A DNA stretch of 64,000 nucleotides from a virus (lineage: Duplodnaviria > Caudoviricetes), in the IMG/VR virus record IMGVR_UViG_3300020331_000002. The stretch is one strand, 5' to 3'. The translations under genes and the position numbers were made by a program. Positions 12,805 through 63,460 of this stretch are shown one piece after another. Below the pieces are notes generated by a model. The model was not told the DNA's origin and ran no database searches. It worked only from the letters and a program-made list of their open reading frames with translations. Each line of letters starts with the position of its first letter. The first letter of the stretch is position 1.

Positions 12805-13133
12805 TGATTCATGCGCCTAAAGTGTTTGGCTAAGCTGCGAGTCCTGCACTCTGACAGGTAGCGTCTCAGTTTTGATACTTTTACATGGAACAAATTAGCG
12901 GCCTCGGAATCAGTACAGTCGTGTTCGTTAAGATACTTGGCTGCTCTGCGTACTGCATTACAGTGACGTCTGTACTGCCGTGCCACTTCTTTTTCGGTAT
13001 GATTAAACTTTTCGGCGATGCTTTTTGAGCACGTAACTACCACAGGATCAGAATCGTTTAAGATTGAAATACCTGTTGTGCTCAATACCAGGCGTTCCAT
13101 TTCCCTGTTTGCTTGGTAATATTTTCCTGGCAT
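12801..13133 (-). CDS. hypothetical protein, possible HTH
   Basis: 110 aa; SEAANLFHVKVSKLRRYL resembles an HTH. Confidence 0.6.
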   Translation of the reverse strand: MPGKYYQANREMERLVLSTTGISILNDSDPVVVTCSKSIAEKFNHTEKEVARQYRRHCNAVRRAAKYLNEHDCTDSEAANLFHVKVSKLRRYLSECRTRSLAKHFRRMNQ

Positions 13134-13146
13134 ACATCCTCCGTGT

Positions 13147-13401
13147 TTACTTCACGCCCATTATGCCCTCGATTTCTTTCTTAGACATCATGACATATGT
13201 GTTGTCAATTACTTTGCACCACTTGCCGTTGATTTTGGTAGCCACCTCACTGCGGTATTGATTACAGCAAGGATCGTGACCATCAGGGAATCGTGCATTA
13301 AGGCTCACTTTTTCACGATCATGTGGATACGTTGAAGCGTGGTAAACCTCGCCTCGTTTAATCCCTAGTCTCGTGTCGTTTTTCAAAATCATTACTTCCA
13401 C
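13147..13401 (-). CDS. hypothetical protein
   Basis: 84 aa. Confidence 0.65.
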   Translation of the reverse strand: MEVMILKNDTRLGIKRGEVYHASTYPHDREKVSLNARFPDGHDPCCNQYRSEVATKINGKWCKVIDNTYVMMSKKEIEGIMGVK

Positions 13402-13669
13402 TGGGTATTCCTTTTTCTAGAGCTTGTATTTCGCCGGTGTCGGTGTCTAATACGTAGACAAATACACGGCAGTATGAACGTATTGTTTCGTCACGGCATT
13501 GTTTACGGTCTGTAAGTGAATCTAACCGCTCGCATCCTGACAATATGGTGTTGAATGCAACGCGGTCTTCTCCGACCACATCAGTACAATCGTGTTCAGT
13601 AAATGGATGGAATCGGGAACAACCGGCGATAAACAATAATGGGACTAACACGCTGAATAGTTTTCTCAT
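13358..13669 (-). CDS. putative lipoprotein
   Basis: Start re-called at 13669 (MRKLFSVLVPLLFIAGC lipobox). Confidence 0.65.
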   Translation of the reverse strand: MRKLFSVLVPLLFIAGCSRFHPFTEHDCTDVVGEDRVAFNTILSGCERLDSLTDRKQCRDETIRSYCRVFVYVLDTDTGEIQALEKGIPSGSNDFEKRHETRD

Positions 13670-13856
13670 ACTTCGCTGCTCCGTTATGAATAAGGCCCGG
13701 GCGCTTTGAGCAGAACAGACGGCCAGTGCTGTATCTACCCATAACGCCCTTGAAGGCATAGAATCATCCCTCTATATGTTTTTTGCGCACGGCATACGCG
13801 CCGCGGTGGGATTCGCACCCAAATGAAACATGCCAACCAATTTAACTGGTTGAAAA

Positions 13857-13980
13857 GGGTGGAGAGCAAGGAATTGAACCTCATCTTCCGGCTTGGGCTG
13901 AATGAAAACATGCTGTTAGAATACTAATACAGTATTCGTTATTTTCGTGGCCGGCGTGCAACCGTTACACTTTCTCTCCA
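13857..13980 (-). ncRNA. tRNA-like RNA with 50-nt insert in anticodon loop carrying the UAACAGCA module
   Basis: Acceptor UGGAGAG/CUCUCCA, D arm GUG/CAC with GG, AC stem CCGGC/GCCGG, T arm with UUCAAUU loop; 57-nt loop instead of 7. Confidence 0.8.
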
Positions 13981-13999
13981 TATTCGCTATTATACATTT

Positions 14000-14239
14000 T
14001 TACTTGTCGGCGTCAAGTAGTTTTAGCAAATTTTTAAAAAGTTCTGGGTCTAGTCGTGGGGTTGGTGCAGTGGTTGGTGCTGGCGCGACGCGCACAAACT
14101 CGGCTTCTTTATCTCGTTTGCATGTCATGACACATCCGCATGTCATATCAAAAGCAGACTCGCCGAAGCCGTGACTCACTAAGTCTTCTATTTCGGTGAC
14201 GCAGTTGCAATTGGTGCATATTATCAGTTTATCAGACAT
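14000..14239 (-). CDS. small Cys-rich (Zn-binding) protein
   Basis: CTNC...CGC motifs. Confidence 0.6.
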   Translation of the reverse strand: MSDKLIICTNCNCVTEIEDLVSHGFGESAFDMTCGCVMTCKRDKEAEFVRVAPAPTTAPTPRLDPELFKNLLKLLDADK

Positions 14240-14288
14240 TATAGTTGCTCATATAACAGACAGGCTAAAGGTATCGCGGATAGCAGGG

Positions 14289-14660
14289 CTAAAGGTACTC
14301 TATGTCTATTACCTTAGCACTAGGCACGGTGAACTCGGTCTCGCGATCAGTTATATTACCGAAAATGATATCGTTTGGGTTGAACTCAAACGTTACCAAA
14401 ATTTCTTCTTCTGCTAGGCCGCTGTAATAGTCAAGCACATAATCACGGTCAAGTGACATATAAATGCCATTACCGGGCATTCGCATTGTGTCGCCTTTCT
14501 TTATATCAAGTACGATACGATTGTTAGCGCCTGCGACTACCTTACCGTTTTCTATGGCCATAACTTTATAGCCGGTCATTGTTTGTTCTCCAGCAATGTT
14601 TTCGGCCATGCTGCGCAGTGCAGCTGACAGATCATCCTGAAAAAGTTCATCTAAAATCAT
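14289..14660 (-). CDS. hypothetical protein (late)
   Basis: 123 aa, TAAATA upstream at 14685-14690. Confidence 0.7.
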   Translation of the reverse strand: MILDELFQDDLSAALRSMAENIAGEQTMTGYKVMAIENGKVVAGANNRIVLDIKKGDTMRMPGNGIYMSLDRDYVLDYYSGLAEEEILVTFEFNPNDIIFGNITDRETEFTVPSAKVIDIEYL

Positions 14661-14711
14661 ACAAGTCCCCGTTAGTTGTTACACTATTTATATGATTTTA
14701 GTTGAACGCTT

Positions 14712-14969
14712 TCAATCCTGTGCGGGAAAGCGAACAGCTACCTGGTTACCGTTTGTGTCAATGCCATTGGCAGTCCAGGTCTTGTTAATATGATTTTGAC
14801 GCACCATAGCAGTCAATGTCACAGATTCACCGGTAGTGAACTCTACGAACATCTTACACATATGGGTGTCAACGAATTGCAGATCATCAAAGTCCACAGA
14901 TGCGACAACGCGGGTGTCATACCCGCGATATCGTTTACTAAACCATTTGAGTGTTATTACTTCCATCAA
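14712..14969 (-). CDS. hypothetical protein
   Basis: 85 aa. Confidence 0.65.
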   Translation of the reverse strand: MMEVITLKWFSKRYRGYDTRVVASVDFDDLQFVDTHMCKMFVEFTTGESVTLTAMVRQNHINKTWTANGIDTNGNQVAVRFPAQD

Positions 14970-15343
14970 CCTCTCGCTTGTTTCATTGCTTCAATATCAT
15001 CTTCATCGTACAAATACGCATCACCAACAGCGTCGTGAGCTGGGCTACCGTAACGCGGCGCCACACTGTACCATAAATCTGAACGATGTAATTTAGGATA
15101 GCGACCTTCAGAAATTTTATGGCGCATAATTTCTAAGCGCTCACGTTGCAAGTCTAAATCTTCACTTGCCGCTACGTGACGATAACGCTTACCGTTGAAT
15201 AGTTCAACTTGAAAATAATAAACATCAACAATGACGTTGTCACCGTCTTCAGTGTAATGACCGGCTTTGTATTGCTGATCAGAAACAATCTCAAGCGAAT
15301 GTATTTGAACGCCTTCTAGGGCCTTAGTGTACTGGTCTGTCAT
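14966..15343 (-). CDS. hypothetical protein (early)
   Basis: 125 aa after early promoter. Confidence 0.75.
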   Translation of the reverse strand: MTDQYTKALEGVQIHSLEIVSDQQYKAGHYTEDGDNVIVDVYYFQVELFNGKRYRHVAASEDLDLQRERLEIMRHKISEGRYPKLHRSDLWYSVAPRYGSPAHDAVGDAYLYDEDDIEAMKQARG

Positions 15344-15377
15344 ATCGTTTTACCTTGTTTGTTAGCTTACAATAGAT

Positions 15378-15420
15378 ATGATAGCGCCTTGAGCGTCAAT
15401 GTCAAGGCCTTTTTGAAGAA
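15378..15420 (-). promoter_or_regulatory. phage early promoter (conserved class)
   Basis: TTCAAAAAGGCC-TTGACA-TTGACGCTCAAGGCGC-TATCAT. Confidence 0.75.
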
Positions 15421-15430
15421 AAATTAAAAA

Positions 15431-15628
15431 TTATTTCGGTAAACGGTCGAGCACTTCTTTTGCTGCTTCGTCCATCCTCGCATCTAGCAGGTTTGAGATT
15501 TCGTTCATGTAACCCAAGCGCAGATTAACGTCGTGGCCGTCGCAGTCGTTTTCAATGTAACGAAAGCGTTCTTCGTGTAGTTGCTCAGTTGTCATTGTTT
15601 GTAACTTTTCTAGTGCTTTGTTTTTCAT
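15431..15628 (-). CDS. hypothetical protein
   Basis: 65 aa with GAGG RBS. Confidence 0.65.
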   Translation of the reverse strand: MKNKALEKLQTMTTEQLHEERFRYIENDCDGHDVNLRLGYMNEISNLLDARMDEAAKEVLDRLPK

Positions 15629-15676
15629 GATATTACCTCATTAATTGGGAGGAAGGAAGGGTTGTCAAAACAACCC

Positions 15677-15949
15677 TTAGCGCAAGTAAGTTTGCTTCAA
15701 ACTGTCAATCCAGTTTGTCATGCTTACTAGTTGCTTCTGAGTCATGCGCTCAGTGCCTGCCAATTCAAGCACCTCGTCTAACATGTAACCAATTTGGTCA
15801 CTGTTAGCGTAGTAAGGGTTATTTTTGCTCAACACATAGCCAGTGTTGCGAGTACGGCGTTTAACAAAAGCTTTTAGGTCAGCCACAGTGTGCTTCGGCT
15901 TTTCAATCAACGCTAAATGTTCTTTTTTAATGCTGCTCAAAGTGTTCAT
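15677..15949 (-). CDS. hypothetical protein (early)
   Basis: 90 aa after early promoter. Confidence 0.7.
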   Translation of the reverse strand: MNTLSSIKKEHLALIEKPKHTVADLKAFVKRRTRNTGYVLSKNNPYYANSDQIGYMLDEVLELAGTERMTQKQLVSMTNWIDSLKQTYLR

Positions 15950-15990
15950 AGTGTCTTACCTTTGTTTGTTAAATGTCGTCTTCAGTATCT

Positions 15991-16040
15991 ATATTACTAC
16001 CTTGACGACCAAAGTCAACACCTGTTTGAAAAAATTTCAA
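15991..16040 (-). promoter_or_regulatory. phage early promoter (conserved class)
   Basis: TTTTTTCAAACAGGTG-TTGACT-TTGGTCGTCAAGGTAG-TAATAT. Confidence 0.75.
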
Positions 16041-16053
16041 TTATTTTTCGACA

Positions 16054-16497
16054 CTACTTTAGAAAGCTTTTTGCCATTAAGCTACCAGCAGGAATAATAA
16101 TATAGTACACCGCGTTGTCACCGTGTCCCATTTCATTCCAGAAAAACAGCACGTAATCACCTGAGTTTACTTCCTGGATTACTAACGACTCACCGTGCAT
16201 GTCATTAATGCTGAACGGATCCGTAGCGGAGTCGTATTGCACGGGCGATGATATAAATTCAAGGCCCTCTCGCTCTACGCCAATTAAATCAGCTATCACT
16301 GACTCGTCAGAGTCAACAATATAAAGGTAGAAGCTTTCTACGCCGGGATCAAGGTTTATGATACCGTTACATAGCACGTTCGACACCATACCGGGCGGGA
16401 TAGGGGTATGTAAAACAGAGCCGGGGCGTATAAAAGAAAGTGACGAAAGTCCTGATCTAACAATGCCATCAACGGTGTTTGCGATTAACTGTGTCAT
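16054..16497 (-). CDS. hypothetical protein
   Basis: 147 aa. Confidence 0.7.
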   Translation of the reverse strand: MTQLIANTVDGIVRSGLSSLSFIRPGSVLHTPIPPGMVSNVLCNGIINLDPGVESFYLYIVDSDESVIADLIGVEREGLEFISSPVQYDSATDPFSINDMHGESLVIQEVNSGDYVLFFWNEMGHGDNAVYYIIIPAGSLMAKSFLK

Positions 16498-16559
16498 AAT
16501 ATTACCCTTGTTATAAAAAAGTTCAAAGATAATATTACATATATGAGGTTTGAACGCAA

Positions 16560-16718
16560 GACTATTCGCGAGTTGCCTTGCCGGTCATTTCTTTCTACCT
16601 TCTAGTTGCCATTTAGTAAGGCTGACCCCGGACCTTCCCCTAACTAAGTTAGGCTAGCTGGTTAAGTAGCTGGCTAGGCTCCACAGCACATACGGCCCCA
16701 GTTTGTCGCGATCCGGTC
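16560..16718 (-). ncRNA. putative structured RNA (~160 nt)
   Basis: ORF-free; nested helices UCGCGA/UCGCGA, GCCUAGCC/GGCAAGGC, CUAAC/GUUAG, GGUCA/UGACC. Confidence 0.45.
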
Positions 16719-16726
16719 TTTTTCGT

Positions 16727-16978
16727 TTAATCTTTGGTTGTCTTTTCAACATCCTCGATGTTCTGCATTACATCTTGCCTAAATGCTTTATACGCGCTCG
16801 CTAGCACATCAGGCCGCGTTAACCCGATCCACCACGACATGATGTTATTGATTCTATTCGAATCGTCAGAGGGAGCCTGCGGCGTTTTAAACCAATGGAA
16901 TACAGTTAGCATACCCAACAGTGTGAAGAATATACCACTAACCGAGAGTAAAAACAAAAATAGTGACAGAATCATAGA
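16727..16978 (-). CDS. small membrane protein
   Basis: Start re-called at MILSLF (GGAGG RBS); TM helix. Confidence 0.65.
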   Translation of the reverse strand, partial: SMILSLFLFLLSVSGIFFTLLGMLTVFHWFKTPQAPSDDSNRINNIMSWWIGLTRPDVLASAYKAFRQDVMQNIEDVEKTTKD

Positions 16979-16991
16979 ACCTCCTTTTCTT

Positions 16992-17486
16992 TTATTTACT
17001 GTCACCAAGCGCGGAGTTTATCAGTTCTGCCTCGCCGCTTAAAACGATGTCAAATTCAGCTTGCGCTTTCTTGAAAGCTCGCTTCTTTTTCTCTTTGAGC
17101 GCGGATATTTCGTCAGCATAGACATTGATAAAGTGTGCTTTGCCTTCCGTGTTCAAGAAGTTCCATAAGTAGAAGACTGACACAAAATCATTATACGGGT
17201 TGTCAAGCTTTGCGCGTATTACCTGTACTGTATTAAAGTACTCAACACCGCCGAGATCGTATACGCGAGCTCCGGTGATTTCGATATTATAATCTTTATT
17301 TTCGTGACGAGTCCAGCCATTACTTTTGCCAAGAAAATCACCCTCGACTTCAGTAAACTCGATATCAAAATATGACATGAATGTTTTCATTTCAATACGA
17401 GTCGGCTTCTTGAAATTGATTGTATTCCTATCAACAGCACCGGCGATAGTCTCAATACCAGGCGATAGGCTAAAAGCTTCTTTCAT
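16992..17486 (-). CDS. hypothetical protein
   Basis: 164 aa. Confidence 0.7.
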   Translation of the reverse strand: MKEAFSLSPGIETIAGAVDRNTINFKKPTRIEMKTFMSYFDIEFTEVEGDFLGKSNGWTRHENKDYNIEITGARVYDLGGVEYFNTVQVIRAKLDNPYNDFVSVFYLWNFLNTEGKAHFINVYADEISALKEKKKRAFKKAQAEFDIVLSGEAELINSALGDSK

Positions 17487-17504
17487 TACTTACTCAATAA
17501 AGGC

Positions 17505-17580
17505 TGGAGCACACTGCGGGATTCGAACCCGCGTATCTGGATTTGCAATCCAGTGCCTATATCCTCTCGGCCAAGCGTGC
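17505..17580 (-). tRNA. tRNA-Cys(GCA)
   Basis: Cloverleaf, AC arm CUGGA-UUGCAAA-UCCAG, U73, CCA. Confidence 0.92.
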
Positions 17581-17587
17581 TCTATGA

Positions 17588-17827
17588 TTAAGAACTAGCA
17601 GATGCAACAAGCGCAACGGCGTCAACTAGTGCAAGGATTTCATTTTCAGTTTTGTTTTCCAAATTTTCAAAACATAGATCCATTGACACACAATCTACGA
17701 ACTGAAGCTCAAATGAGTCAGTCATTGTCGGAATTACACCGACGTGAAACATGATCGGTGCCTTACCGCGAATATGTTTAGTCAATTCGTTAAAGAATTC
17801 TTTCGAAATAATCTTCTTGTTTGGCAT
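17588..17827 (-). CDS. hypothetical protein
   Basis: 79 aa. Confidence 0.6.
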   Translation of the reverse strand: MPNKKIISKEFFNELTKHIRGKAPIMFHVGVIPTMTDSFELQFVDCVSMDLCFENLENKTENEILALVDAVALVASASS

Positions 17828-17835
17828 CTTTTTTC

Positions 17836-18414
17836 CTAGTATGTACTTACGTCTTGAGCGAACTCGTCGCCAAACCCAACCAATAACTCAGTCATGTTTT
17901 GGCAATCAAGATAGTTGGCAGCGTGCACGTCTGCAAATATAGCAACGTCGCCGCGCTCACGGGGCTCTAACATTTCTGTCGACTTAACTAAAGTTTCGAC
18001 GTCCATTTCATAGTGTGCTTTAATATACGCGCCGTTTACAATGCTTCCTAAGCGCTGGCCATCGGCGTTGCCGCCATATAACATGAATTCTTCAGCGACG
18101 TAGTTACCTACGGGCATCGAGAAAGACTCACTATCGATTACTGCAATACGGTATTCGCCGATTTCGCATACTAGCAGACCGTTCAAGCCGTTCAGGCCTT
18201 CGTGCTTTGCTAGATCAGCCGGGTCGAGCATAGATATAACTTCGTCTATGTGTTCTTGGCTTTCGCATAGTGCAAGGCTTGTGCCGTCAGCGCCGCTGAT
18301 GTCGAGTGTAAAGCTAGTAGGCGGCTTTACGTTAGGTTGACAGTAATACGTGCCTTTGAGGTCAAGCTTACTGCCTGGATAGTGGATTTCTACCTTGTGT
18401 GGTACGAGTTTCAT
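17836..18414 (-). CDS. hypothetical protein
   Basis: 192 aa with GGAG RBS. Confidence 0.75.
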   Translation of the reverse strand: MKLVPHKVEIHYPGSKLDLKGTYYCQPNVKPPTSFTLDISGADGTSLALCESQEHIDEVISMLDPADLAKHEGLNGLNGLLVCEIGEYRIAVIDSESFSMPVGNYVAEEFMLYGGNADGQRLGSIVNGAYIKAHYEMDVETLVKSTEMLEPRERGDVAIFADVHAANYLDCQNMTELLVGFGDEFAQDVSTY

Positions 18415-18787
18415 GATCGTTCTCCGTTACGTAAAGCCTAATTACTTTACTATGCACAGTGTAGCACCGGATCCAAATCAGTCAACTGTTTTGTGAAAAA
18501 TAAATTATTTCTTTTTCTTCTTTTCTTTTTTGGCTGGCGCTACTTTTTCTTCAACTTTTATTTTAGGTGCGCTAACTGCTTGAGGTTCAATGTTATTTGC
18601 AAACACCGATTCTATTAGTTCAACAAACCATATTCCGTTTTTTCCCATATATCCTCCGTTATTATGATGATGGTGACCCTAGTGAAATTTAAACAAGCTT
18701 GATAGGCAATGTTCGATTCAGAAGGAGACGGTCTTATAAGTATATACTAGAAAATTTCATTAATTACCGGCATGTGGTGTAAAGAAG

Positions 18788-18908
18788 TGGTAGGGAGTGC
18801 AGGACTCGAACCTGCGACCCACGGCTTACAAGGCAATAAGGATATGCTGTTAGAATACTAAAACAGTATTCATGTTTACGTTGCTCTACCCAACTGAGCT
18901 AACTCCCT
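18788..18908 (-). ncRNA. tRNA (UGU anticodon, Lys-like body) interrupted by 44-nt insert carrying the UAACAGCA module
   Basis: Perfect acceptor, D and T arms and CCA; removing 18835-18878 restores ACGGC-CUUGUAA-GCCGU. Confidence 0.85.
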
Positions 18909-19119
18909 AGAAGTTTCTGATGAACTGTCTTAAGTCTTTGACACCTCCACATCCGAGTATTATTAATCCGCCTAGCGGCACTGCGCTAAAAATACCCACA
19001 AGCACGTTAAACGCGAAACAGTATATTATAGCCATTGCCAAACCCACATTAAGGGTCAATATGCCTGCCATCAAAAGCATTGCACAAAAACGGATTAATG
19101 TTTTAAATGTATTTTCCAT
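18907..19119 (-). CDS. small membrane protein
   Basis: 70 aa hydrophobic. Confidence 0.6.
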   Translation of the reverse strand: MENTFKTLIRFCAMLLMAGILTLNVGLAMAIIYCFAFNVLVGIFSAVPLGGLIILGCGGVKDLRQFIRNF

Positions 19120-19140
19120 TTTCTTAGTATGAACCCAAGC

Positions 19141-19416
19141 TTACTTTTTGTCAAGGAATTTTTTAAAATCACTGTAAATTTCTATGCCAGCTTCTTCAAC
19201 TTCCGCCTGTGTCAAAAACGCAGAGTCTGAGTACAAGGTACCGTCGCGTTTAATGAAGTAAAACCGATCATCGACTTTGCCCAAAACAGCACCCCGGCCC
19301 AAAAGTCCGGGCACCATATCAATCAACGAGGCTGCGCCAAACACGGTTGCCTTAAACAGTTCAGCATCAGGCACGATACCGATTAAAATGTCAGTGACGT
19401 CATTTATAGTAGCCAT
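19141..19416 (-). CDS. hypothetical protein
   Basis: 91 aa with GAGG RBS. Confidence 0.7.
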   Translation of the reverse strand: MATINDVTDILIGIVPDAELFKATVFGAASLIDMVPGLLGRGAVLGKVDDRFYFIKRDGTLYSDSAFLTQAEVEEAGIEIYSDFKKFLDKK

Positions 19417-19423
19417 GATAACC

Positions 19424-19765
19424 TCACTTAAACTTAACCGGTAGTGTTATATAATTGTTTGTATCGAATTCTACGATGCGCATGAGAGCCCAGCGTTCAG
19501 CGATAATATTGCGCTTTTTCCCTTTGACAGAAAGTTGGCAACGGAAGCGACCGTCCCAGAAGCTGCGCTTGAGCTTCTTTAGCTGGCCGGATTTAATCGA
19601 GAACACTTCTTCGCGCTCAATAGAAACGTAGTATCCGGGCGCATTTGAAATTGGATGTAAGAGATTCGAGTCGTTTAGATCAACGATATCACAGGGCGGG
19701 GATAGGTGTTGTTCATTAAAGCGGTCTAGCGCCGCTAGCACAGCTTCTTTAATTCTTTTAATCAT
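19424..19765 (-). CDS. hypothetical protein with NUMOD4/HNH-like N-terminal element
   Basis: PISNAPGYYVS....VFSIKSG..KKLK pattern. Confidence 0.5.
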   Translation of the reverse strand: MIKRIKEAVLAALDRFNEQHLSPPCDIVDLNDSNLLHPISNAPGYYVSIEREEVFSIKSGQLKKLKRSFWDGRFRCQLSVKGKKRNIIAERWALMRIVEFDTNNYITLPVKFK

Positions 19766-19781
19766 AGTAACCTCGAGTTAA

Positions 19782-19888
19782 GGTTGCCGGGCCAAGGAAT
19801 CGAACCTCGTTCGGGTGCATACTTGCGAAGTTTGCTGCGACAAATCTAAACAGACTTAATGGAGTCCCTCAGAATCATTCACCCGGCA
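19782..19888 (-). ncRNA. tRNA-like RNA (acceptor + T arm) with CGCAGCAA module and no anticodon arm
   Basis: UGCCGGG/CCCGGCA stem, CGAGG-UUCGAUU-CCUUG T arm, hairpin-GUCGCAGCAA-hairpin core. Confidence 0.65.
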
Positions 19889-19932
19889 TAATAGGTACGT
19901 ATAAGGATAGTACCTATTTGATTAAAAGTCTA

Positions 19933-20403
19933 TTAGTTTCCAGGATGTCTACGATGCCATTCGCGCTCTTGTTCAGCTTCGGCGTCGTCGTGCCATTGTT
20001 GCTTTTCGTCACTTGTTGCTTCGAACTCAATCTCAGAGCCATTCACATCATATGTGACATTGTCGAAATACTTCTCGTTCGTGTCGAAGAATTCCTGCAC
20101 TTGGTCTGGGTTCGCTGTGCGCTTTGCTTCGCTAGCCAAACGCTGGATTTCTTTGTCAGTGATGTAATCGTTTGGACCAAACGAATCGGAGTTGGCGATT
20201 TCACGATCCATGTAAATCTCTACCGGATCCTTAGTGCCTGCCATCTTATTGAGATAACGTAGCATAGATACTAGGAGTTCTGCCACTGCCATGTTTTGAC
20301 ACATGTAGAATTGATCGTCTACACTGTGGTCAATAACAAGAGCAAGGTCTACGTTTAAAGAGCTCTCCATGAGCTTTGTTGATTTGGTGATTTTATCAAA
20401 CAT
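19933..20403 (-). CDS. hypothetical acidic protein (late)
   Basis: 156 aa, TAAATA at 20440-20445. Confidence 0.7.
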   Translation of the reverse strand: MFDKITKSTKLMESSLNVDLALVIDHSVDDQFYMCQNMAVAELLVSMLRYLNKMAGTKDPVEIYMDREIANSDSFGPNDYITDKEIQRLASEAKRTANPDQVQEFFDTNEKYFDNVTYDVNGSEIEFEATSDEKQQWHDDAEAEQEREWHRRHPGN

Positions 20404-24190: not shown

Positions 24191-24240
24191 ATTATAGCTA
24201 TTTGATGCTCAATGTCAATACCTGTTTGAAAATAATTTCA
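24191..24240 (-). promoter_or_regulatory. phage early promoter (conserved class)
   Basis: AAATTATTTTCAAACAGGTA-TTGACA-TTGAGCATCAAATAGC-TATAAT. Confidence 0.8.
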
Positions 24241-24297
24241 AAATAGAAACAAAAAGAGCCCTGTTAAAAACAGAGCTCAGTGTAGTATGAAGTTATA

Positions 24298-24498
24298 TCA
24301 CGCCAGTGTTATGACGTTACCCTTACGGACTGCAAAGCCTTCATTCAAAACGCGATGCACCCAGCGTATTGCTGTTTTTTCAGTGCAGCCAAACTTCGCA
24401 CTAACTAGGCCGCGTACTTGCCAATCAAAAGCTACAAACTCAGTTTCTGACAAAAACTCTGCTACTGCTTGAGGGTTAAATTTAGCCATTTTTGACAC
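24298..24498 (-). CDS. small possible DNA-binding protein (early)
   Basis: 66 aa, wHTH-like pattern; promoter at 24522-24555. Confidence 0.6.
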   Translation of the reverse strand: MSKMAKFNPQAVAEFLSETEFVAFDWQVRGLVSAKFGCTEKTAIRWVHRVLNEGFAVRKGNVITLA

Positions 24499-24561
24499 CC
24501 TGTGTTGTTAAGTTCGTATACATTATAGCAATGTGAACACCAAACACAAGGCCTAATTGAA

Positions 24562-24777
24562 TTATTTCTTCTGAATATACTTGTATATTGCGGCGCACTT
24601 GCCGAGAACTTCTTCTATTTGGTTATCGAGTTCAACCAACGCACGATCAAGGCTAGGGTCTGCAAGGTCAGGCATGTCGTTTTCAAGCTTTTGTTTGGCT
24701 GCTTTGATAGCCATGTATGTGTTTCGAATTGGCTTGGTTACCGCTGTCGAGCGTTCAGTAATACTACTAATTTTCAC
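24562..24777 (-). CDS. candidate capsid-targeted internal protein
   Basis: MKISSITE N-terminus; TAAATA at 24802-24807. Confidence 0.55.
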   Translation of the reverse strand: MKISSITERSTAVTKPIRNTYMAIKAAKQKLENDMPDLADPSLDRALVELDNQIEEVLGKCAAIYKYIQKK

Positions 24778-33808: not shown

Positions 33809-33905
33809 TAGTACCAGGTACGGGATTCGAACCCGCAGGGTCATTATTGCAGACCGCGACAAGCACTTCCGTGATGCCGCGCCTTCCCATTCGGCGCAAC
33901 CTAGT
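33809..33905 (-). ncRNA. atypical tRNA-like gene (CGG loop, A33, long variable arm, ACUA end)
   Basis: Paired acceptor, D and T arms; loop CACGGAA; about 25-nt variable region. Confidence 0.65.
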
Positions 33906-38131: not shown

Positions 38132-38144
38132 AAAATATATTTTG

Positions 38145-38228
38145 CACAGCGGACGGGTCTCGAACCCGCAATGCGATATTCGCGCTGCCTTGAAAGGGCA
38201 GTGACTTTACCAGTTTGTCCACCGCTGT
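38145..38228 (-). tRNA. tRNA-Glu(UUC) with long variable arm, CCA not encoded
   Basis: CUGCC-CUUUCAA-GGCAG; variable GCGA-AUA-UCGC; ends G-CAA. Confidence 0.85.
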
Positions 38229-39643: not shown

Positions 39644-39728
39644 TGGTGGGTTGGGTGGGATTCGAACCCACGAAGCTTTACGCGCTAGATTAAAAGTCTA
39701 GTATCTTTAACCACTCGATCACCAACCC
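39644..39728 (-). tRNA. tRNA-Lys(UUU) with long variable arm
   Basis: CUAGA-CUUUUAA-UCUAG; 13-nt variable region; CCA. Confidence 0.88.
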
Positions 39729-39893: not shown

Positions 39894-39985
39894 TGGCGGA
39901 CGGTGCTGGATTTGAACCAGCGCGGGGGATATTCTCCACCTCCGGGTTAACAGCCCGGCGCAATCGGCCACTATGCGAACCGCCC
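39894..39985 (-). tRNA. tRNA-Asn(GUU) with long variable arm
   Basis: CCGGG-CUGUUAA-CCCGG; about 20-nt variable hairpin; CCA. Confidence 0.88.
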
Positions 39986-40767: not shown

Positions 40768-40863
40768 TGTATCCTCGATTAATATTCAATAGGAACCGTA
40801 GTTCCTTGCTATAGTTTTATTTAGCACCGCAAAACCATTTTTTACGGCAGCTAGTAATAAAAC

Positions 40864-40918
40864 AGGCTAGTTTTTTTAAAACGCCAATGTTTTTTAAAAA
40901 AATTGCTGTTCCTAGCCT
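40864..40918 (-). ncRNA. AACAGCAA module copy A
   Basis: AGGCUAG-GAACAGCAA-[U7A4...U4A7 hairpin]-CUAGCCU. Confidence 0.75.
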
Positions 40919-40947
40919 AAGTCGTTTGTTCTAAAAACATGGTGTCT

Positions 40948-40975
40948 ATTATACATGCTTTTAAAACGTTGTCAA
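40948..40975 (-). promoter_or_regulatory. sigma70-like promoter driving module A
   Basis: TTGACA-N16-TATAAT. Confidence 0.8.
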
Positions 40976-41009
40976 GAACTTTTTTCAACTTTCTTGACTT
41001 TAATAAGTC

Positions 41010-41074
41010 GGGTTGCTTTTACTAGGTTCGAAGGATGAGTTCGAATTTTCGTAAAGTTTTGCTGTTAGCAACCC
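41010..41074 (-). ncRNA. AACAGCAA module copy B
   Basis: GGGUUGC-UAACAGCAA-[UUCGAA...UUCGAA hairpin region]-GCAACCC-GACUUA. Confidence 0.75.
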
Positions 41075-41304
41075 ATAATAGATATACACCGTGATGCACA
41101 TGTATTATGAGTAAAAATAGCAGCGAACTATCCAAAGGGTTGGGAGTTCTCCAGATAGTCGCTACCCAAGAGAGTGGATGAACACTCTAGACAAACAAAA
41201 TAAGTCGGGCTACATTATCTAAAGTCAAATTAAAAGTTTGATGATCGATAATATTGCTGTTAGTAGCCCATAATAGATATACACCGTGATGCACATGTAT
41301 TATG
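41072..41304. repeat. 38-nt perfect direct repeat (41072-41109 and 41267-41304), itself a hairpin
   Basis: cccataatagatatacaccgtgatgcacatgtattatg twice. Confidence 0.95.
41207..41269 (-). ncRNA. AACAGCAA module copy C
   Basis: GGGCUAC-UAACAGCAAU-[AUUAUC...GAUAAU]-GUAGCCC-GACUUA. Confidence 0.78.
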
Positions 41305-41449
41305 GGTTCTAACATTACACCCGGTTTTGGGTCCTAAATTGCCGTACTCCCGGGGTAACATTAAAAATTAACGCCGTATCCAAATATATGCGTTCAGGTC
41401 AAATCGGATAAAAATCACCTACTAACACATAAGAAGAACTTTGTTAAAC

Positions 41450-41513
41450 TGGATGCATTAAGTACTGGTTTGATTAGAAGTCAAAAGTAATTAAATGTTG
41501 CTGTTAGCATCCA
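41450..41513 (-). ncRNA. AACAGCAA module copy D
   Basis: UGGAUGC-UAACAGCAAC-[AUUUAAUUACU...AGUACUUAAU]-GCAUCCA. Confidence 0.78.
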
Positions 41514-41562
41514 AAACTTTTTAGCTTTACGGAAACTTTGTTTCCCTAACGCTGTCTTATCT

Positions 41563-61873: not shown

Positions 61874-63460
61874 CTATCGTTTGATTAGGAATATTCCCAA
61901 TCTTGCATCAGGCGATGCAAGACCTGTACCGTAATCATAGCGGTGATGGAATTGCAGTGTACTTCTTGAACCCGATAGCAAACGAGAGCCTTGATCGTCA
62001 AGCCACATAGCACCAGCGAAGCCGTTTGAATTCACACCCATAGCCGATTCCCATGCTTGTTCTTCTTCGTTAGTAATCGACCCACTGTAAGTAAACGTGT
62101 TAGGCGGAAGATCTCTACCTATAATGCGCCTAATCATCGGGTCTATTTCTGCATCAGTTGCCAAGCGCAGGCCAACGAAGCGGTAATCGGTATTGATGCT
62201 TTCGAAACTCTGGCCAGTTGAATTTGGTATTTTAAGCCATTCAAGACCAGAAACCGGATCAACATAAAAGTCTTCGTCAGTAAATGCCGGTTTTCTGTTT
62301 CCGTCACGAACAAGGTAAATAGAATCTCCACGGTTGTTCTGGTCTTTATAAACATTGTAAGTCGCATTGTTGTGGTGATGAGTATATTCGTAATATAACG
62401 GTATGCTACTTGAGCTGAAGTTGGCGGCACCTGTCATGTAGGCAACATCATCATCGCCTATATATTCACCAAAGACTGCGCCTGTCTTTCCGGGGTTAGT
62501 TAGTGCATCCGAAAATCTACCGTAAACGGCAGATCCCATATTACCGACGGCAGGCATGTTGTAATTAGGCGTTGGAAGATAGCCAACCAAGTCTTCAACA
62601 AGTTCGTTAACTTCGGTTTCTGTCGCTATACGTAAACCCGCATACTCGGGCTTGGATAGTACATCATTTAACACCTCATCGATTGAATAGTTAAGCTTGA
62701 GCCATTCCACACCGGTCTTGAAGTCAACATAAAACTTCGCAGGACCGTAATTGCCGCGCGGGAACAACGGCATTTGATCAGCGTAGGTCGGTGTGGTACC
62801 GTTTCTTACAAGGAAAACACCTGTATTCGCCCTCGCAGTAGACGAGCTATATCTATAATCATACACAGTGCCGTTTTGCCATACGCCACCACCGCCTATA
62901 CCGTCTGTTACCGACGGTTGATCGGAAGAATACTCGTAGTACCATCCGTATGCTGCGGAAGACACATAGCCGATGTACTCTCTTAAGGCATTGTCTATAT
63001 TTGTGGCCAGACTCTTGGTTACGCTAGGCGACCCAGGAGTCGGGTCAAATAAATTGTTGGGATCAAATGTCGGCTCAGTATCTATTATCATATTGTTAAA
63101 AAACGTTGCCACTTCGTAGTTGTTAGCTATACGCCAGCCAGGGTAGTCCGACGCAAGAGCCGCCTCTACCTCAGGTATAGTCATACCAGCAGTAGCTTGC
63201 ATCTTAAGCCAATCTAGTCCGGTATAATAGTCGCTGGTGACCAAGCCATCGCCGGCTTGCCAATCATTGTGGCCTATCCCCGCGACTAAGCCTTTATGCG
63301 TAACTGGGTTATCGTCTACCGGCAACGATCCGTTTTCCTTATAGTAAAGTACTTGTGATTTAATTCTCGGCACCTTTTCTCCCCTTATTGTAGGCATCGC
63401 AATCGGATCTGGTGATTTTAGTTTTCGTGGTCTCACCGGCCCACTAAATTTAATTGGCAT
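61874..63460 (-). CDS. tandem paralog 3: three DUF1566-like domains
   Basis: DYYTGLDWL, DFKTGVEWL, DPVSGLEWL. Confidence 0.65.
   Translation of the reverse strand: MPIKFSGPVRPRKLKSPDPIAMPTIRGEKVPRIKSQVLYYKENGSLPVDDNPVTHKGLVAGIGHNDWQAGDGLVTSDYYTGLDWLKMQATAGMTIPEVEAALASDYPGWRIANNYEVATFFNNMIIDTEPTFDPNNLFDPTPGSPSVTKSLATNIDNALREYIGYVSSAAYGWYYEYSSDQPSVTDGIGGGGVWQNGTVYDYRYSSSTARANTGVFLVRNGTTPTYADQMPLFPRGNYGPAKFYVDFKTGVEWLKLNYSIDEVLNDVLSKPEYAGLRIATETEVNELVEDLVGYLPTPNYNMPAVGNMGSAVYGRFSDALTNPGKTGAVFGEYIGDDDVAYMTGAANFSSSSIPLYYEYTHHHNNATYNVYKDQNNRGDSIYLVRDGNRKPAFTDEDFYVDPVSGLEWLKIPNSTGQSFESINTDYRFVGLRLATDAEIDPMIRRIIGRDLPPNTFTYSGSITNEEEQAWESAMGVNSNGFAGAMWLDDQGSRLLSGSRSTLQFHHRYDYGTGLASPDARLGIFLIKR

What the first reader, a model, noticed from the sequence alone, without database searches (positions are those of the whole stretch)
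13857..13980. Second tRNA-like gene with the module replacing the anticodon loop; 27/28-nt identity to the 18.8-kb insert
The anticodon stem CCGGC/GCCGG encloses 57 nt. These fold as an outer helix GAAAAUA/UGUUUUC, a hairpin GAAUACU/AGUAUUC, and unpaired UAACAGCA. The core atgctgttagaatacta(a/t)aacagtattc-type segment (13910-13937 vs 18844-18871) differs at one position although the tRNA bodies and insertion points are unrelated. This suggests a mobile or selected RNA cassette placed in two different tRNAs.
Basis: seen in the sequence. Interest (0 to 1): 0.85.

Follow-up and report, generated by a model that had tools for sequence, protein, structure and literature searches.

The report
Y-RNA-like module inside phage tRNA mimic
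This small phage gene is a tRNA look-alike whose anticodon loop is replaced by a conserved RNA hairpin module, and that module looks like the docking site that "Y RNAs" use for a ring-shaped Ro60-type protein, which every phage carrying the module also encodes.

Summary
Window 13857-13980 (minus strand) is a tRNA-shaped gene. Its CCGGC/GCCGG anticodon stem encloses 57 nt, and 28 of these match the insert of the 18.8-kb tRNA at 27 positions.

The cassette is not private to this phage. It has a fixed anatomy: an A-rich lead (..AAAAC), a 7-bp covarying hairpin, exactly 5 nt, then GCA. I found it in tRNA or tRNA-like genes of KVP40-type vibriophages (annotated there as "pseudo-tRNAs"), a cyanophage, an Aeromonas phage, a 735-kb phage and metagenomic phages. 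The window holds three copies (13.9, 18.8 and 19.8 kb).

All 8 module-bearing genomes tested encode one DUF2828/DUF7788 protein, against 1.4% of phage records overall. Its predicted fold is Ro60 (TROVE + vWA). "Stem + UAACAGCAA" RNAs, the same kind as the window's 41-kb modules, lie beside that gene in Listeria, Campylobacter, mycobacterial and metagenomic phages. One of them is a sub-threshold Rfam YrlA match.

The tRNA-embedded module is that Y-RNA stem closed by a loop. The finding is therefore most likely a circularly permuted, YrlA-like tRNA-mimic Y RNA. No canonical anticodon loop can be restored, and no splicing was seen.

Novelty: new variant of a known kind.

The parts
13857..13980 (-). 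tRNA-like gene 'a13': acceptor, D arm, anticodon stem and T arm, but no canonical anticodon loop
   Evidence: Read directly from the sequence. ARAGORN calls it only at a lowered threshold. No Rfam tRNA match.
13989..14016 (-). Sigma-70-type promoter TTGACG, 16-nt spacer, TATAAT. The expected start lies 1-2 nt before the tRNA-like 5' end.
   Evidence: Promoter scan, 11 of 12 consensus matches. Kept in the relative as TTGACA.
13833..13853 (-). Terminator-like hairpin followed by a U-rich tail, directly after the gene
   Evidence: Terminator scan. Conserved in the relative.
13950..13954 (-). Anticodon-stem 5' strand CCGGC
   Evidence: Sequence; conserved in the relative.
13888..13892 (-). Anticodon-stem 3' strand GCCGG
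   Evidence: Sequence; conserved in the relative.
13905..13947 (-). Conserved module: A-rich lead, 7-bp hairpin (13937-13919), tail UAACAGCA (13918-13911)
   Evidence: Covariance model R1, 42.1 bits, E 1.9e-7. Hairpin covariation. The 29-nt core is unchanged in G001.
18788..18908 (-). tRNA 'b18' with the same module. The 44-nt insert at 18835-18878 sits between nucleotides 29 and 30 of the anticodon stem. Removing it gives tRNA-Thr(UGU).
   Evidence: ARAGORN in intron mode. Junction scan. R1, 39.8 bits. A foreign intron-less tRNA-Thr contig is colinear with the exons at the junction, with 18834 as the last matching base.
19782..19887 (-). Third module-bearing tRNA-like gene 'c19'. Acceptor and T arms are normal; D and anticodon arms are aberrant. 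Module at 19827-19868.
   Evidence: R1, 24.1 bits, E 0.004. Conserved in relatives.
40863..41514 (-). Four stand-alone 'stem + (U/G)AACAGCAA + AU-rich hairpin' RNAs. They are Y-RNA-like and are the permuted counterpart of the tRNA-embedded module.
   Evidence: Sequence. The stem scan finds all four with 8-bp stems; with one further chance-level 6-bp hit the window gives 5 hits in all, against a mean of 0.6 in shuffles. The same architecture lies beside Ro60-like genes elsewhere.

Best explanation
The gene at 13857-13980 most likely encodes a small stable RNA of the Y-RNA kind. It is a tRNA mimic that carries a docking module for the phage's own Ro60-like protein (DUF2828/DUF7788, TROVE + vWA fold).

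In known bacterial and phage YrlA Y RNAs, the two RNA ends pair to form the Ro60-binding stem, and a tRNA-like domain sits at the far end. Here the topology is circularly permuted. The RNA ends lie in a normal acceptor stem. The docking stem is closed by a loop and sits where the anticodon loop should be, still flanked by the same single strands (..AAAAC before the helix, UAACAGCA after it).

The gene has its own host-type promoter and terminator, so it would probably be made early in infection.

Inferred mechanism, not shown: the Ro-like ring binds the helix plus the ACAGCA strand, and the tRNA-shaped half recruits or occupies tRNA-handling or RNA-decay/repair enzymes (PNPase, RtcB or other ligases, the CCA enzyme). 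Published Ro60-Y RNA particles work in this way.

The same module also sits inside true tRNAs such as the 18.8-kb gene. Whether the module is cut out of those tRNAs is open.
For: 1. Conserved anatomy. Fifteen copies from 7 genomes align as lead, 7-bp hairpin, NNNCN, GCA. In the hairpin, 94% of cells pair, 5 of 7 pairs show double changes and 0 of 500 shuffles reach the score.
2. The module is selected for itself. Its 29-nt core is identical in the 88%-identical relative, while the surrounding tRNA body takes 16 changes in 124 nt, including two broken T-stem pairs.
3. Co-occurrence. A comparison of four module-bearing proteomes left only NAMPT, PhoH, NrdA and a DUF2828/DUF7788 protein shared by all. 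PF11443 is present in 8 of 8 module-bearing records and in 0 of 14 control cellular genomes. Only 709 of 50,697 phage records (1.4%) encode it.
4. The protein is Ro60-like. The AF2 model has pLDDT 89. The Foldseek top hits are full-length Ro60 chains (9l5y, 9kop, 1yvp, 2i91, 2nvo) with probability 1.0 and TM 0.5-0.66. Mycobacteriophage homologues are annotated 'Ro-like RNA binding protein'.
5. Adjacency. Module-bearing tRNAs lie next to this gene in cyanophage BUCT-ZZ01, Aeromonas phage APT65 and metagenomic contig L083.
6. Link to Y RNAs. 'Stem + UAACAGCAA' RNAs lie beside the Ro-like gene in Listeria LP-124 (at least two), Campylobacter CP81 (at least one), L083 (three) and mycobacteriophage Clautastrophe (three by reading, one found by the scan). 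In Clautastrophe the middle RNA is an Rfam YrlA match (39 bits, E 2e-7, below the gathering score). Its terminal stem is followed by CACAGCAA and preceded on the 3' side by AAAAAC, the same flanks as the tRNA-embedded hairpin.
7. Own promoter and terminator.
8. No canonical anticodon loop is recoverable, as in YrlA.
9. Literature. YrlA RNAs mimic tRNA and lie next to Ro60 genes, including in phages (PMC4201824). A phage Ro60 binds Y-like RNAs encoded upstream of its gene, and together with them host PNPase (PMC12135203). Bas63 gp130 is Ro60-like and lies upstream of tRNA genes, and its authors guessed that some of those are Y RNAs (PMC11482910).
Against: - No binding or expression experiment exists. 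The evidence is comparative only.
- In this phage lineage the Ro-like gene is not adjacent. It lies about 113 kb away in relative G001 and is not in the window.
- The Rfam YrlA model does not match the locus. The Rfam consensus next to its terminal stem reads AUGC, not ACAGCAA.
- The co-occurrence count includes four related vibriophages. Large tRNA-rich phages probably encode the protein more often than 1.4%.
- Two of three randomly picked DUF2828 contigs had no module within 10 kb.
- In sister genes such as b18 the module interrupts what looks like a genuine decoding tRNA, which fits an intron better than a permanent Y RNA.
- The tRNA body of a13 may simply be decaying.
Confidence: 0.6

Rival explanations
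1. The module is a protein-dependent mini-intron. It is cut out of the precursor and the tRNA halves are rejoined by Rnl1, Rnl2 or RtcB-type ligases. The conserved hairpin-CNGCA would be the handle for the splicing machinery, possibly the Ro-like protein itself. On this reading a13 is a tRNA, for example Gly(CCC), or a decayed one.
For: - Exact removal restores canonical tRNAs in many sister genes: b18, BUCT-ZZ01 A and B, the LR756501 copy, KVP40 Pseudo-3, the third F86 copy, D479 copies 1 and 2, and L083 tRNA-Pro.
- In those genes U33 is kept, and position 37 follows the rule for real tRNAs: A37 with anticodons ending in U, G37 with anticodons ending in G.
- Exon bases on either side of the insert covary with the opposite strand of the anticodon stem.
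- A 44-nt bulge at position 29/30 should not fit the ribosome. This is an inference from known ribosome-tRNA contacts.
- An intron-less tRNA-Thr in the same samples is colinear with the b18 exons.
- RNA ligase genes occur in the carrier genomes. RtcB or RNA-ligase genes lie next to the Ro-like gene in LR756501, LP-124 and XbC2.
Against: - For a13 itself no single excision gives a canonical loop. Position 33 is A in the window and C in the relative. The same holds for KVP40 Pseudo-5, nt-1, D479 copy 3 and APT65, although their tRNA bodies covary.
- RNA-library contigs cover b18 unspliced and show no joints. This is weak evidence, because contigs drop rare forms and small RNAs.
- There is no group I core, no bulge-helix-bulge motif and no fixed distance from the motif to the junctions.
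- G001 has no Rnl1, RtcB or AAA_33-type kinase (the only polynucleotide-kinase-type model searched), and only a weak ligase-domain hit.
Confidence: 0.2
2. a13 is a decaying tRNA pseudogene. Its module copy is kept similar to the b18 copy only by gene conversion, and the RNA has no function of its own.
For: The tRNA body diverges at about the genomic background rate, with pair-breaking changes in the acceptor and T stems. The module is 27/28 identical to that of b18, which fits gene conversion.
Against: The promoter, terminator, anticodon stem and T loop are all kept in the relative. The same loop-replaced architecture is conserved with compensatory changes in vibriophages and an Aeromonas phage. 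The b18 and a13 copies differ at the same loop position in different genomes, so they are not simply homogenised.
Confidence: 0.12
3. The cassette is a miniature mobile DNA element (MITE-like, REP-like or a homing target) that happens to land in tRNA genes and has no role at the RNA level.
For: Copies are near-identical within a genome in unrelated tRNA bodies, in the window and in BUCT-ZZ01. Insertion points vary: 28/29, 29/30, and in or after the loop.
Against: There are only three copies in 64 kb, all on the transcribed strand of tRNA-like genes. There are no terminal inverted repeats or target duplications. Strand-specific single-stranded motifs (AAAAC, CNGCA) are conserved over large evolutionary distances, while the stem covaries. 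The cassette co-occurs with an RNA-binding protein.
Confidence: 0.05

Closest known systems
YrlA-type bacterial and phage Y RNAs (Rfam RF02553; Chen et al. 2014, PMC4201824)
   Same: A tRNA-like domain (acceptor, D and T arms, no decoding loop) is joined through the anticodon-stem position to a helix that serves as the Ro60 docking site. The genome encodes a Ro60-type protein. In a mycobacteriophage YrlA homologue the docking stem has the same flanks, AAAAAC and CACAGCAA.
   Different: The topology is circularly permuted: the RNA ends lie in the acceptor stem and the docking stem is capped by a loop. The gene is not detected by the Rfam model and is not adjacent to the Ro-like gene in this genome. 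The partner protein belongs to the DUF2828 branch, not to annotated TROVE proteins.
Phage Ro60 with Y-like RNAs: Thermus phage phiLo (Hu et al. 2025, PMC12135203) and Bas63 gp130 (PhageMaP preprint, PMC11482910)
   Same: A phage-encoded Ro60 homologue has small structured RNAs encoded beside it or beside the tRNA cluster. The Bas63 authors already guessed that some 'tRNA genes' are Y RNAs.
   Different: Neither work describes the hairpin-NNNCNGCA motif or tRNA genes carrying it inside the anticodon arm. The phiLo Yrl RNAs are defined by a CGAA motif.
'Pseudo-tRNAs' of vibriophage KVP40 and the 'enigmatic introns' of Lak megaphage tRNAs (Devoto et al. 2019, bioRxiv 10.1101/356790)
   Same: These are over-long phage tRNA genes with short, non-group-I inserts. 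KVP40 Pseudo-3, -4 and -5 carry exactly this module. A Lak phage also encodes a distant homologue of the Ro-like protein.
   Different: They were annotated only as pseudogenes or unexplained introns. I did not examine the Lak inserts here.
Archaeal/eukaryal bulge-helix-bulge tRNA introns and bacterial group I tRNA introns
   Same: These are intervening sequences in the anticodon arm, including non-canonical positions such as 29/30 in Archaea.
   Different: There is no bulge-helix-bulge geometry and no ribozyme core (57 nt; no Rfam match). For this gene no canonical tRNA can be restored.

Membership tests
Y RNA / YrlA tRNA-mimic RNAs | The genome encodes a Ro60 (TROVE + vWA) protein | tested here: met
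   The DUF2828/DUF7788 protein is present in the 88%-identical complete relative G001, and a 97%-identical copy occurs in public contigs. Its fold matches Ro60. The window's own full genome is not held, and the gene is not in the window.
Y RNA / YrlA tRNA-mimic RNAs | The RNA gene lies next to the Ro60 gene | tested here: not met
   The two are about 113 kb apart in G001. Adjacency is met in BUCT-ZZ01, APT65 and contig L083.
Y RNA / YrlA tRNA-mimic RNAs | tRNA-like domain with T arm, D arm and acceptor stem but no decoding anticodon loop | tested here: met
   Cloverleaf elements read from the sequence. No canonical loop is recoverable.
Y RNA / YrlA tRNA-mimic RNAs | Helix with conserved flanking strands that serves as the Ro60 docking site | tested here: inconclusive
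   The flanks (AAAAC / ACAGCA) are the same as in the RNAs beside Ro-like genes and in a sub-threshold YrlA hit. The Rfam consensus differs at this point, and binding has not been tested.
Y RNA / YrlA tRNA-mimic RNAs | Match to the Rfam YrlA covariance model | tested here: not met
   No YrlA match at E up to 10 in 13000-20000. A miss is expected if the RNA is circularly permuted.
Y RNA / YrlA tRNA-mimic RNAs | Physical association with Ro60 in cells | not testable with these tools
   Needs immunoprecipitation or gel-shift assays.
tRNA introns (group I, or bulge-helix-bulge type) | Group I ribozyme core or a bulge-helix-bulge motif at the junctions | tested here: not met
   The insert is 57 nt with no Rfam intron or ribozyme match. 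Both junctions of the class I inserts meet at one point of the helix, not at two bulges 4 bp apart (read by eye).
tRNA introns (group I, or bulge-helix-bulge type) | Precise removal restores a canonical tRNA | tested here: not met
   For a13, every single excision leaves a loop without U33. The criterion is met for b18 and other class I genes.
tRNA introns (group I, or bulge-helix-bulge type) | A spliced RNA exists | tested here: inconclusive
   Four metatranscriptome runs show no joints and only unspliced contigs. Contigs cannot show rare or small RNAs.
Canonical tRNA (Rfam RF00005) | Cloverleaf with a 7-nt anticodon loop and U33 | tested here: not met
   No RF00005 match. ARAGORN calls it only at an 80% threshold, with A33.
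Miniature mobile DNA elements (MITE / REP) | Many dispersed copies in both orientations, with terminal repeats or target duplications | tested here: not met
   Three copies, all on the sense strand of tRNA-like genes. No terminal repeats were seen.

The most novel reading that the evidence does not exclude
The Ro60-like protein and its docking module form a previously unknown tRNA maturation route in bacteriophages. The module is a protein-recognised intervening sequence in real tRNAs (class I genes such as b18). The Ro-like ring holds the precursor while nucleases and a ligase (RtcB, Rnl1 or Rnl2) remove the module. This would give the phage a switchable supply of tRNAs whose anticodons change quickly: UGU, UUU and GAU in three near-identical phages. 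Loop-replaced forms such as a13 would be non-spliceable derivatives that act as regulators or decoys of the same machine.
Probability: 0.22. Interest if true: 0.9.

Novelty: new variant of a known kind. Interest (0 to 1): 0.72.

Why it matters
- It gives a concrete, testable identity to a class of odd phage "pseudo-tRNAs" and "enigmatic tRNA introns" that have been in databases since the KVP40 genome was published.
- It defines a short RNA motif (AAAAC, helix, NNNCNGCA) that may mark the ligands of a very large, uncharacterised phage protein family. DUF2828 has more than 6,900 members at E 1e-10 or better and occurs in 709 phage records.
- It links that family to Ro60/Y-RNA biology.
- One member of the family, Bas63 gp130, already has a reported anti-defence phenotype, so the RNA partners matter for phage-host conflict.
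- The permuted topology shows that tRNA-mimic Y RNAs can be built directly on a native tRNA frame.
- The sister genes raise the open question of whether bacteria or phages have a protein-dependent tRNA splicing route.

Tried and rejected
- **Known RNA families.** Rfam at the gathering threshold over the window, and at E up to 10 over 13-20 kb, gave no known family for the module. There was no ribozyme, riboswitch, intron or YrlA match.
- **Similarity to known phages.** There was no DNA similarity around 13.9 kb. The one large window protein tested (61874-63460) found no match in the phage collection.
- **Neighbouring ORFs.** Ten small ORFs next to the three genes had no informative Pfam or PHROG hit.
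- **"Fills missing isoacceptors" argument.** I first read KVP40 Pseudo-4 as Tyr(GUA) and Pseudo-5 as Ala(UGC). I dropped this. The F86 orthologue supports only the loop AUGUUAA (Asn) followed by the module, the variable loop is short (not a bacterial Tyr), and Pseudo-5 lacks G3:U70.
- **Closing helix.** An outer helix between lead and trail is not conserved across the family.
- **Bulge-helix-bulge geometry.** It does not fit.
- **RNase P-type minihelix.** The tail is not RCCA.
- **Ligase co-occurrence.** As a test for splicing it is uninformative. PF09414 hits all five genomes but also six control genomes, and the relative lacks Rnl1, RtcB and an AAA_33-type kinase.
- **RNA reads.** Only Logan contigs were available. 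They show no joints.
- **ARAGORN "tRNA-Met with a 244-nt intron" at 24228-24567.** This is a false call inside an ORF.
- **AACAGCA enrichment.** The word is not enriched window-wide: 17 copies against about 12 expected.
- **Own genome.** No genome is held for this window.

Full report
**1. The observation**

On the minus strand, 13980-13857 folds as a tRNA-like cloverleaf.
- Acceptor stem UGGAGAG/CUCUCCA.
- D arm GUGU-AACGGUU-GCAC.
- A 5-bp stem CCGGC/GCCGG in the anticodon position.
- A short variable loop.
- A T arm with the loop UUCAAUU.

The stem encloses exactly 57 nt. These contain the hairpin GAAUACU/AGUAUUC followed by UAACAGCA, within an A/U helix.

The 28-nt core occurs twice in the window (13910-13937 and 18844-18871) with one difference, against none in 100 shuffles. 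The similarity stops at the module edges.

The gene has a sigma-70-type promoter (TTGACG, 16-nt spacer, TATAAT; 11 of 12 matches). Its expected start lies 1-2 nt before the first base. A terminator-like hairpin follows the gene.

The Rfam tRNA model does not match it.

**2. The cassette is a family**

The 18.8-kb gene (b18, 18788-18908) becomes a perfect tRNA-Thr(UGU) if 18835-18878 is removed. The insert lies between nucleotides 29 and 30 of the anticodon stem.

BLAST of b18 led to Synechococcus phage BUCT-ZZ01, which has two unannotated tRNAs with an analogous insert. From there I found further carriers:
- KVP40, where the genes are annotated tRNA-Pseudo-3, -4 and -5, plus one unannotated copy;
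- nt-1, F86 and D479;
- Aeromonas phage APT65;
- the 735-kb uncultured phage LR756501.

Fifteen copies align without effort. The anatomy is an A-rich lead ending in AAAAC, a 7-bp hairpin with a GNNA or 5-nt loop, exactly five nucleotides with C at the fourth position, then GCA.

The hairpin covaries: 94% of cells pair, 5 of 7 pairs show double changes, and 0 of 500 shuffles reach the score.

A covariance model built from this alignment (R1) finds three copies in the window. The third lies in an aberrant tRNA-like gene at 19782-19887. It finds 1-5 copies in each carrier genome.

**3. Three kinds of host gene**

- **Class I.** The insert lies in the 5' strand of the anticodon stem, at 28/29 or 29/30. 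Removing it gives a canonical tRNA with U33. Position 37 follows the usual rule for real tRNAs: A37 with anticodons ending in U, G37 with those ending in G. Examples are b18, BUCT-ZZ01 A and B, LR756501, KVP40 Pseudo-3, the third F86 copy, D479 copies 1 and 2, and L083 tRNA-Pro.
- **Class II.** The module follows an intact-looking loop AUGUUAA. Examples are KVP40 Pseudo-4 and F86 copy 2.
- **Class III.** The loop is replaced and no single excision yields a canonical loop. Examples are this finding, KVP40 Pseudo-5, nt-1, D479 copy 3, APT65 and one gene in L083. Even so, the tRNA bodies of the vibriophage members keep their stems through compensatory changes.

For this finding, the relatives are G001 (IMG/VR, 306.5 kb, 88% identity) and MDTA01088739. 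In them the tRNA body has 16 changes in 124 nt. Two T-stem pairs and one acceptor pair are broken. The 29-nt module core, the anticodon stem, the promoter and the terminator are all kept.

**4. Is it spliced?**

Four metatranscriptome runs hold this region. Their contigs run through b18 unspliced, and no joint was reported. These are contigs, and small structured RNAs are poorly sampled, so this is weak negative evidence.

A foreign intron-less tRNA-Thr contig is colinear with the b18 exons exactly at the predicted junction.

There is no group I core, no bulge-helix-bulge geometry, no conserved closing helix and no fixed distance between the motif and the junctions.

**5. The partner protein**

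I fetched four carrier genomes (G001, BUCT-ZZ01, APT65, KVP40) and compared all their ORFs. Only four proteins are shared by all: NAMPT, PhoH, NrdA and a protein of about 478 aa with the DUF2828 and DUF7788 domains.
- The DUF2828 model hits 8 of 8 module-bearing records and 0 of 14 control cellular genomes.
- Only 709 of 50,697 phage records (1.4%) encode the protein.
- An AF2 model (pLDDT 89) matches Ro60 structures over its full length. The hits include Thermus phage phiLo Ro60, Xenopus and human Ro60, and Deinococcus Rsr, with probability 1.0 and TM 0.5-0.66. The C-terminal part alone matches vWA domains.
- Mycobacteriophage homologues are annotated "Ro-like RNA binding protein".

The genomic context points the same way.
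- The gene lies directly beside the interrupted tRNAs in BUCT-ZZ01 and APT65.
- It lies 4-15 kb from the modules in the vibriophages.
- It lies next to an RtcB-like gene in LR756501.
- It lies next to tRNA clusters, an RtcB-like gene or an RNA-ligase gene in CP81, LP-124, EFDG1 and XbC2.

**6. The link to Y RNAs**

An unrelated 112-kb metagenomic contig (L083) has a 1.7-kb ORF-free stretch right upstream of its Ro-like gene. That stretch holds:
- a class I tRNA-Pro with the module;
- a class III tRNA-like gene with the module (R1, 37.5 bits);
- three "stem + AACAGCAA + AU-rich hairpin" RNAs.

Those three RNAs have the architecture of the window's four modules at 40863-41514. They even share an internal stretch with the window's second module.

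The same stand-alone RNAs lie immediately beside the Ro-like gene in three other phages:
- Listeria phage LP-124: three by reading, two found by the scan;
- Campylobacter phage CP81: two by reading, one found by the scan;
- mycobacteriophage Clautastrophe: three by reading, one found by the scan.

In Clautastrophe the middle RNA is an Rfam YrlA match (39 bits, E 2e-7, below the gathering score). Its terminal stem GGACCCC/GGGGUCC is followed by CACAGCAA, and on the 3' side it is preceded by AAAAAC.

If that terminal stem is closed with a loop, the order becomes AAAAAC, helix, loop, helix, CACAGCAA. This is exactly the tRNA-embedded module. The finding is therefore best read as a circular permutation of a YrlA-type Y RNA. 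It keeps the same tRNA-like half and the same docking helix with the same flanks, but the RNA ends lie in the acceptor stem.

**7. What is shown and what is inferred**

Shown:
- the anatomy of the gene;
- the conservation and covariation of the module;
- its spread across phage lineages;
- its co-occurrence and recurrent adjacency with a Ro60-fold protein;
- the shared flanks with RNAs beside that gene.

Inferred:
- that the protein binds the module;
- that the RNA is stable and unspliced;
- that the particle acts on RNA decay, repair or defence evasion, by analogy with Ro60-Y RNA-PNPase particles (PMC4201824, PMC12135203) and with the anti-Ppl phenotype of Bas63 gp130 (PMC11482910).

**8. Rivals**

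A protein-dependent intron is the main rival. It is attractive for class I genes and not exclusive of the Ro60 reading. It fits a13 poorly, because no canonical loop can be restored. A decaying pseudogene kept similar by gene conversion cannot be excluded for a13 alone. It does not explain the conserved class III genes of other phages or the retained promoter and terminator. A DNA-level mobile element is unlikely, given the strand-specific conservation and the tRNA-only context.

**9. Novelty**

Y RNAs that mimic tRNA, and phage Ro60 homologues, are known. One preprint guessed that some phage "tRNA genes" are Y RNAs. I could not find three things described in the papers searched:
- the motif itself;
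- its permuted placement inside native tRNA frames, including apparently functional tRNAs;
- its association with the DUF2828 branch.

Noticed in passing
window 18788-18908 (-); L036:2410-2560; L035:6064-6214: The anticodon of the interrupted tRNA b18 differs among near-identical phages. It is UGU (Thr) in the window, UUU (Lys) in CEUZ01267439 (96.5% identity) and GAU (Ile) in G001/MDTA01088739. Every stem is unchanged. This looks like rapid anticodon switching.
   Followed up: partly
window 19782-19887 (-): A third module-bearing tRNA-like gene has normal acceptor and T arms but no recognisable D or anticodon arm. It is 95% conserved in relatives, and a coding gene starts about 17 nt downstream.
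   Followed up: partly
window 40863-41514 (-): Four 'stem + (U/G)AACAGCAA + AU-rich hairpin' RNAs. At least two of them sit behind strong sigma-70-type promoters (read by eye; no promoter scan was run here). Modules 2 and 3 are each preceded by a repeated segment of about 50 nt whose 9-bp hairpin competes for the GGG of the module stem. The internal stretch CAUCAAACUUUUAAUUUGAC is shared with contig L083.
   Followed up: partly
window 33811-33905, 38144-38228, 39644-39728, 39894-39985 (-): tRNA-Pro(CGG), tRNA-Glu, tRNA-Lys and tRNA-Asn of this phage carry long variable arms (13-27 nt). In bacteria these isotypes normally have short variable loops.
   Followed up: no
L006:595-718; L005:595-716; L008:595-714: The KVP40, nt-1 and F86 tRNA(CAU) genes with the module would have an 8-nt anticodon loop AUUCAUAA after removal of the insert. 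A paralogue in F86 with the same junctions gives a normal 7-nt loop (UAG).
   Followed up: partly
L083:9032-9093; L086:2414-2965: A freshwater-1 RNA (80 bits, above the gathering score) lies between two module-bearing tRNAs upstream of a Ro-like gene. A ROOL-like RNA (87 bits, just below the gathering score) lies in the tRNA cluster upstream of the Ro-like gene of Listeria phage LP-124.
   Followed up: no
L083:9440-9850: Two further tRNA-like genes (class II-type D loop, good T arms) carry inserts of about 100 nt of a different kind. Repeats of the form CAGCUGG(G)AAAGAC lie nearby.
   Followed up: no
window 13600-13981 and 13600-13889: One metatranscriptome contig ends at 13981, the predicted transcription start of a13. 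Another ends at 13889, at the 3' strand of the stem that closes the module. Contig ends are not evidence of RNA ends, but they are worth checking with raw reads.
   Followed up: no
W02 (LR756501.1) 341431-343182: In the 735-kb phage the Ro60-like gene lies directly next to an RtcB-like ligase gene. This mirrors the bacterial rsr-rtcB arrangement.
   Followed up: no
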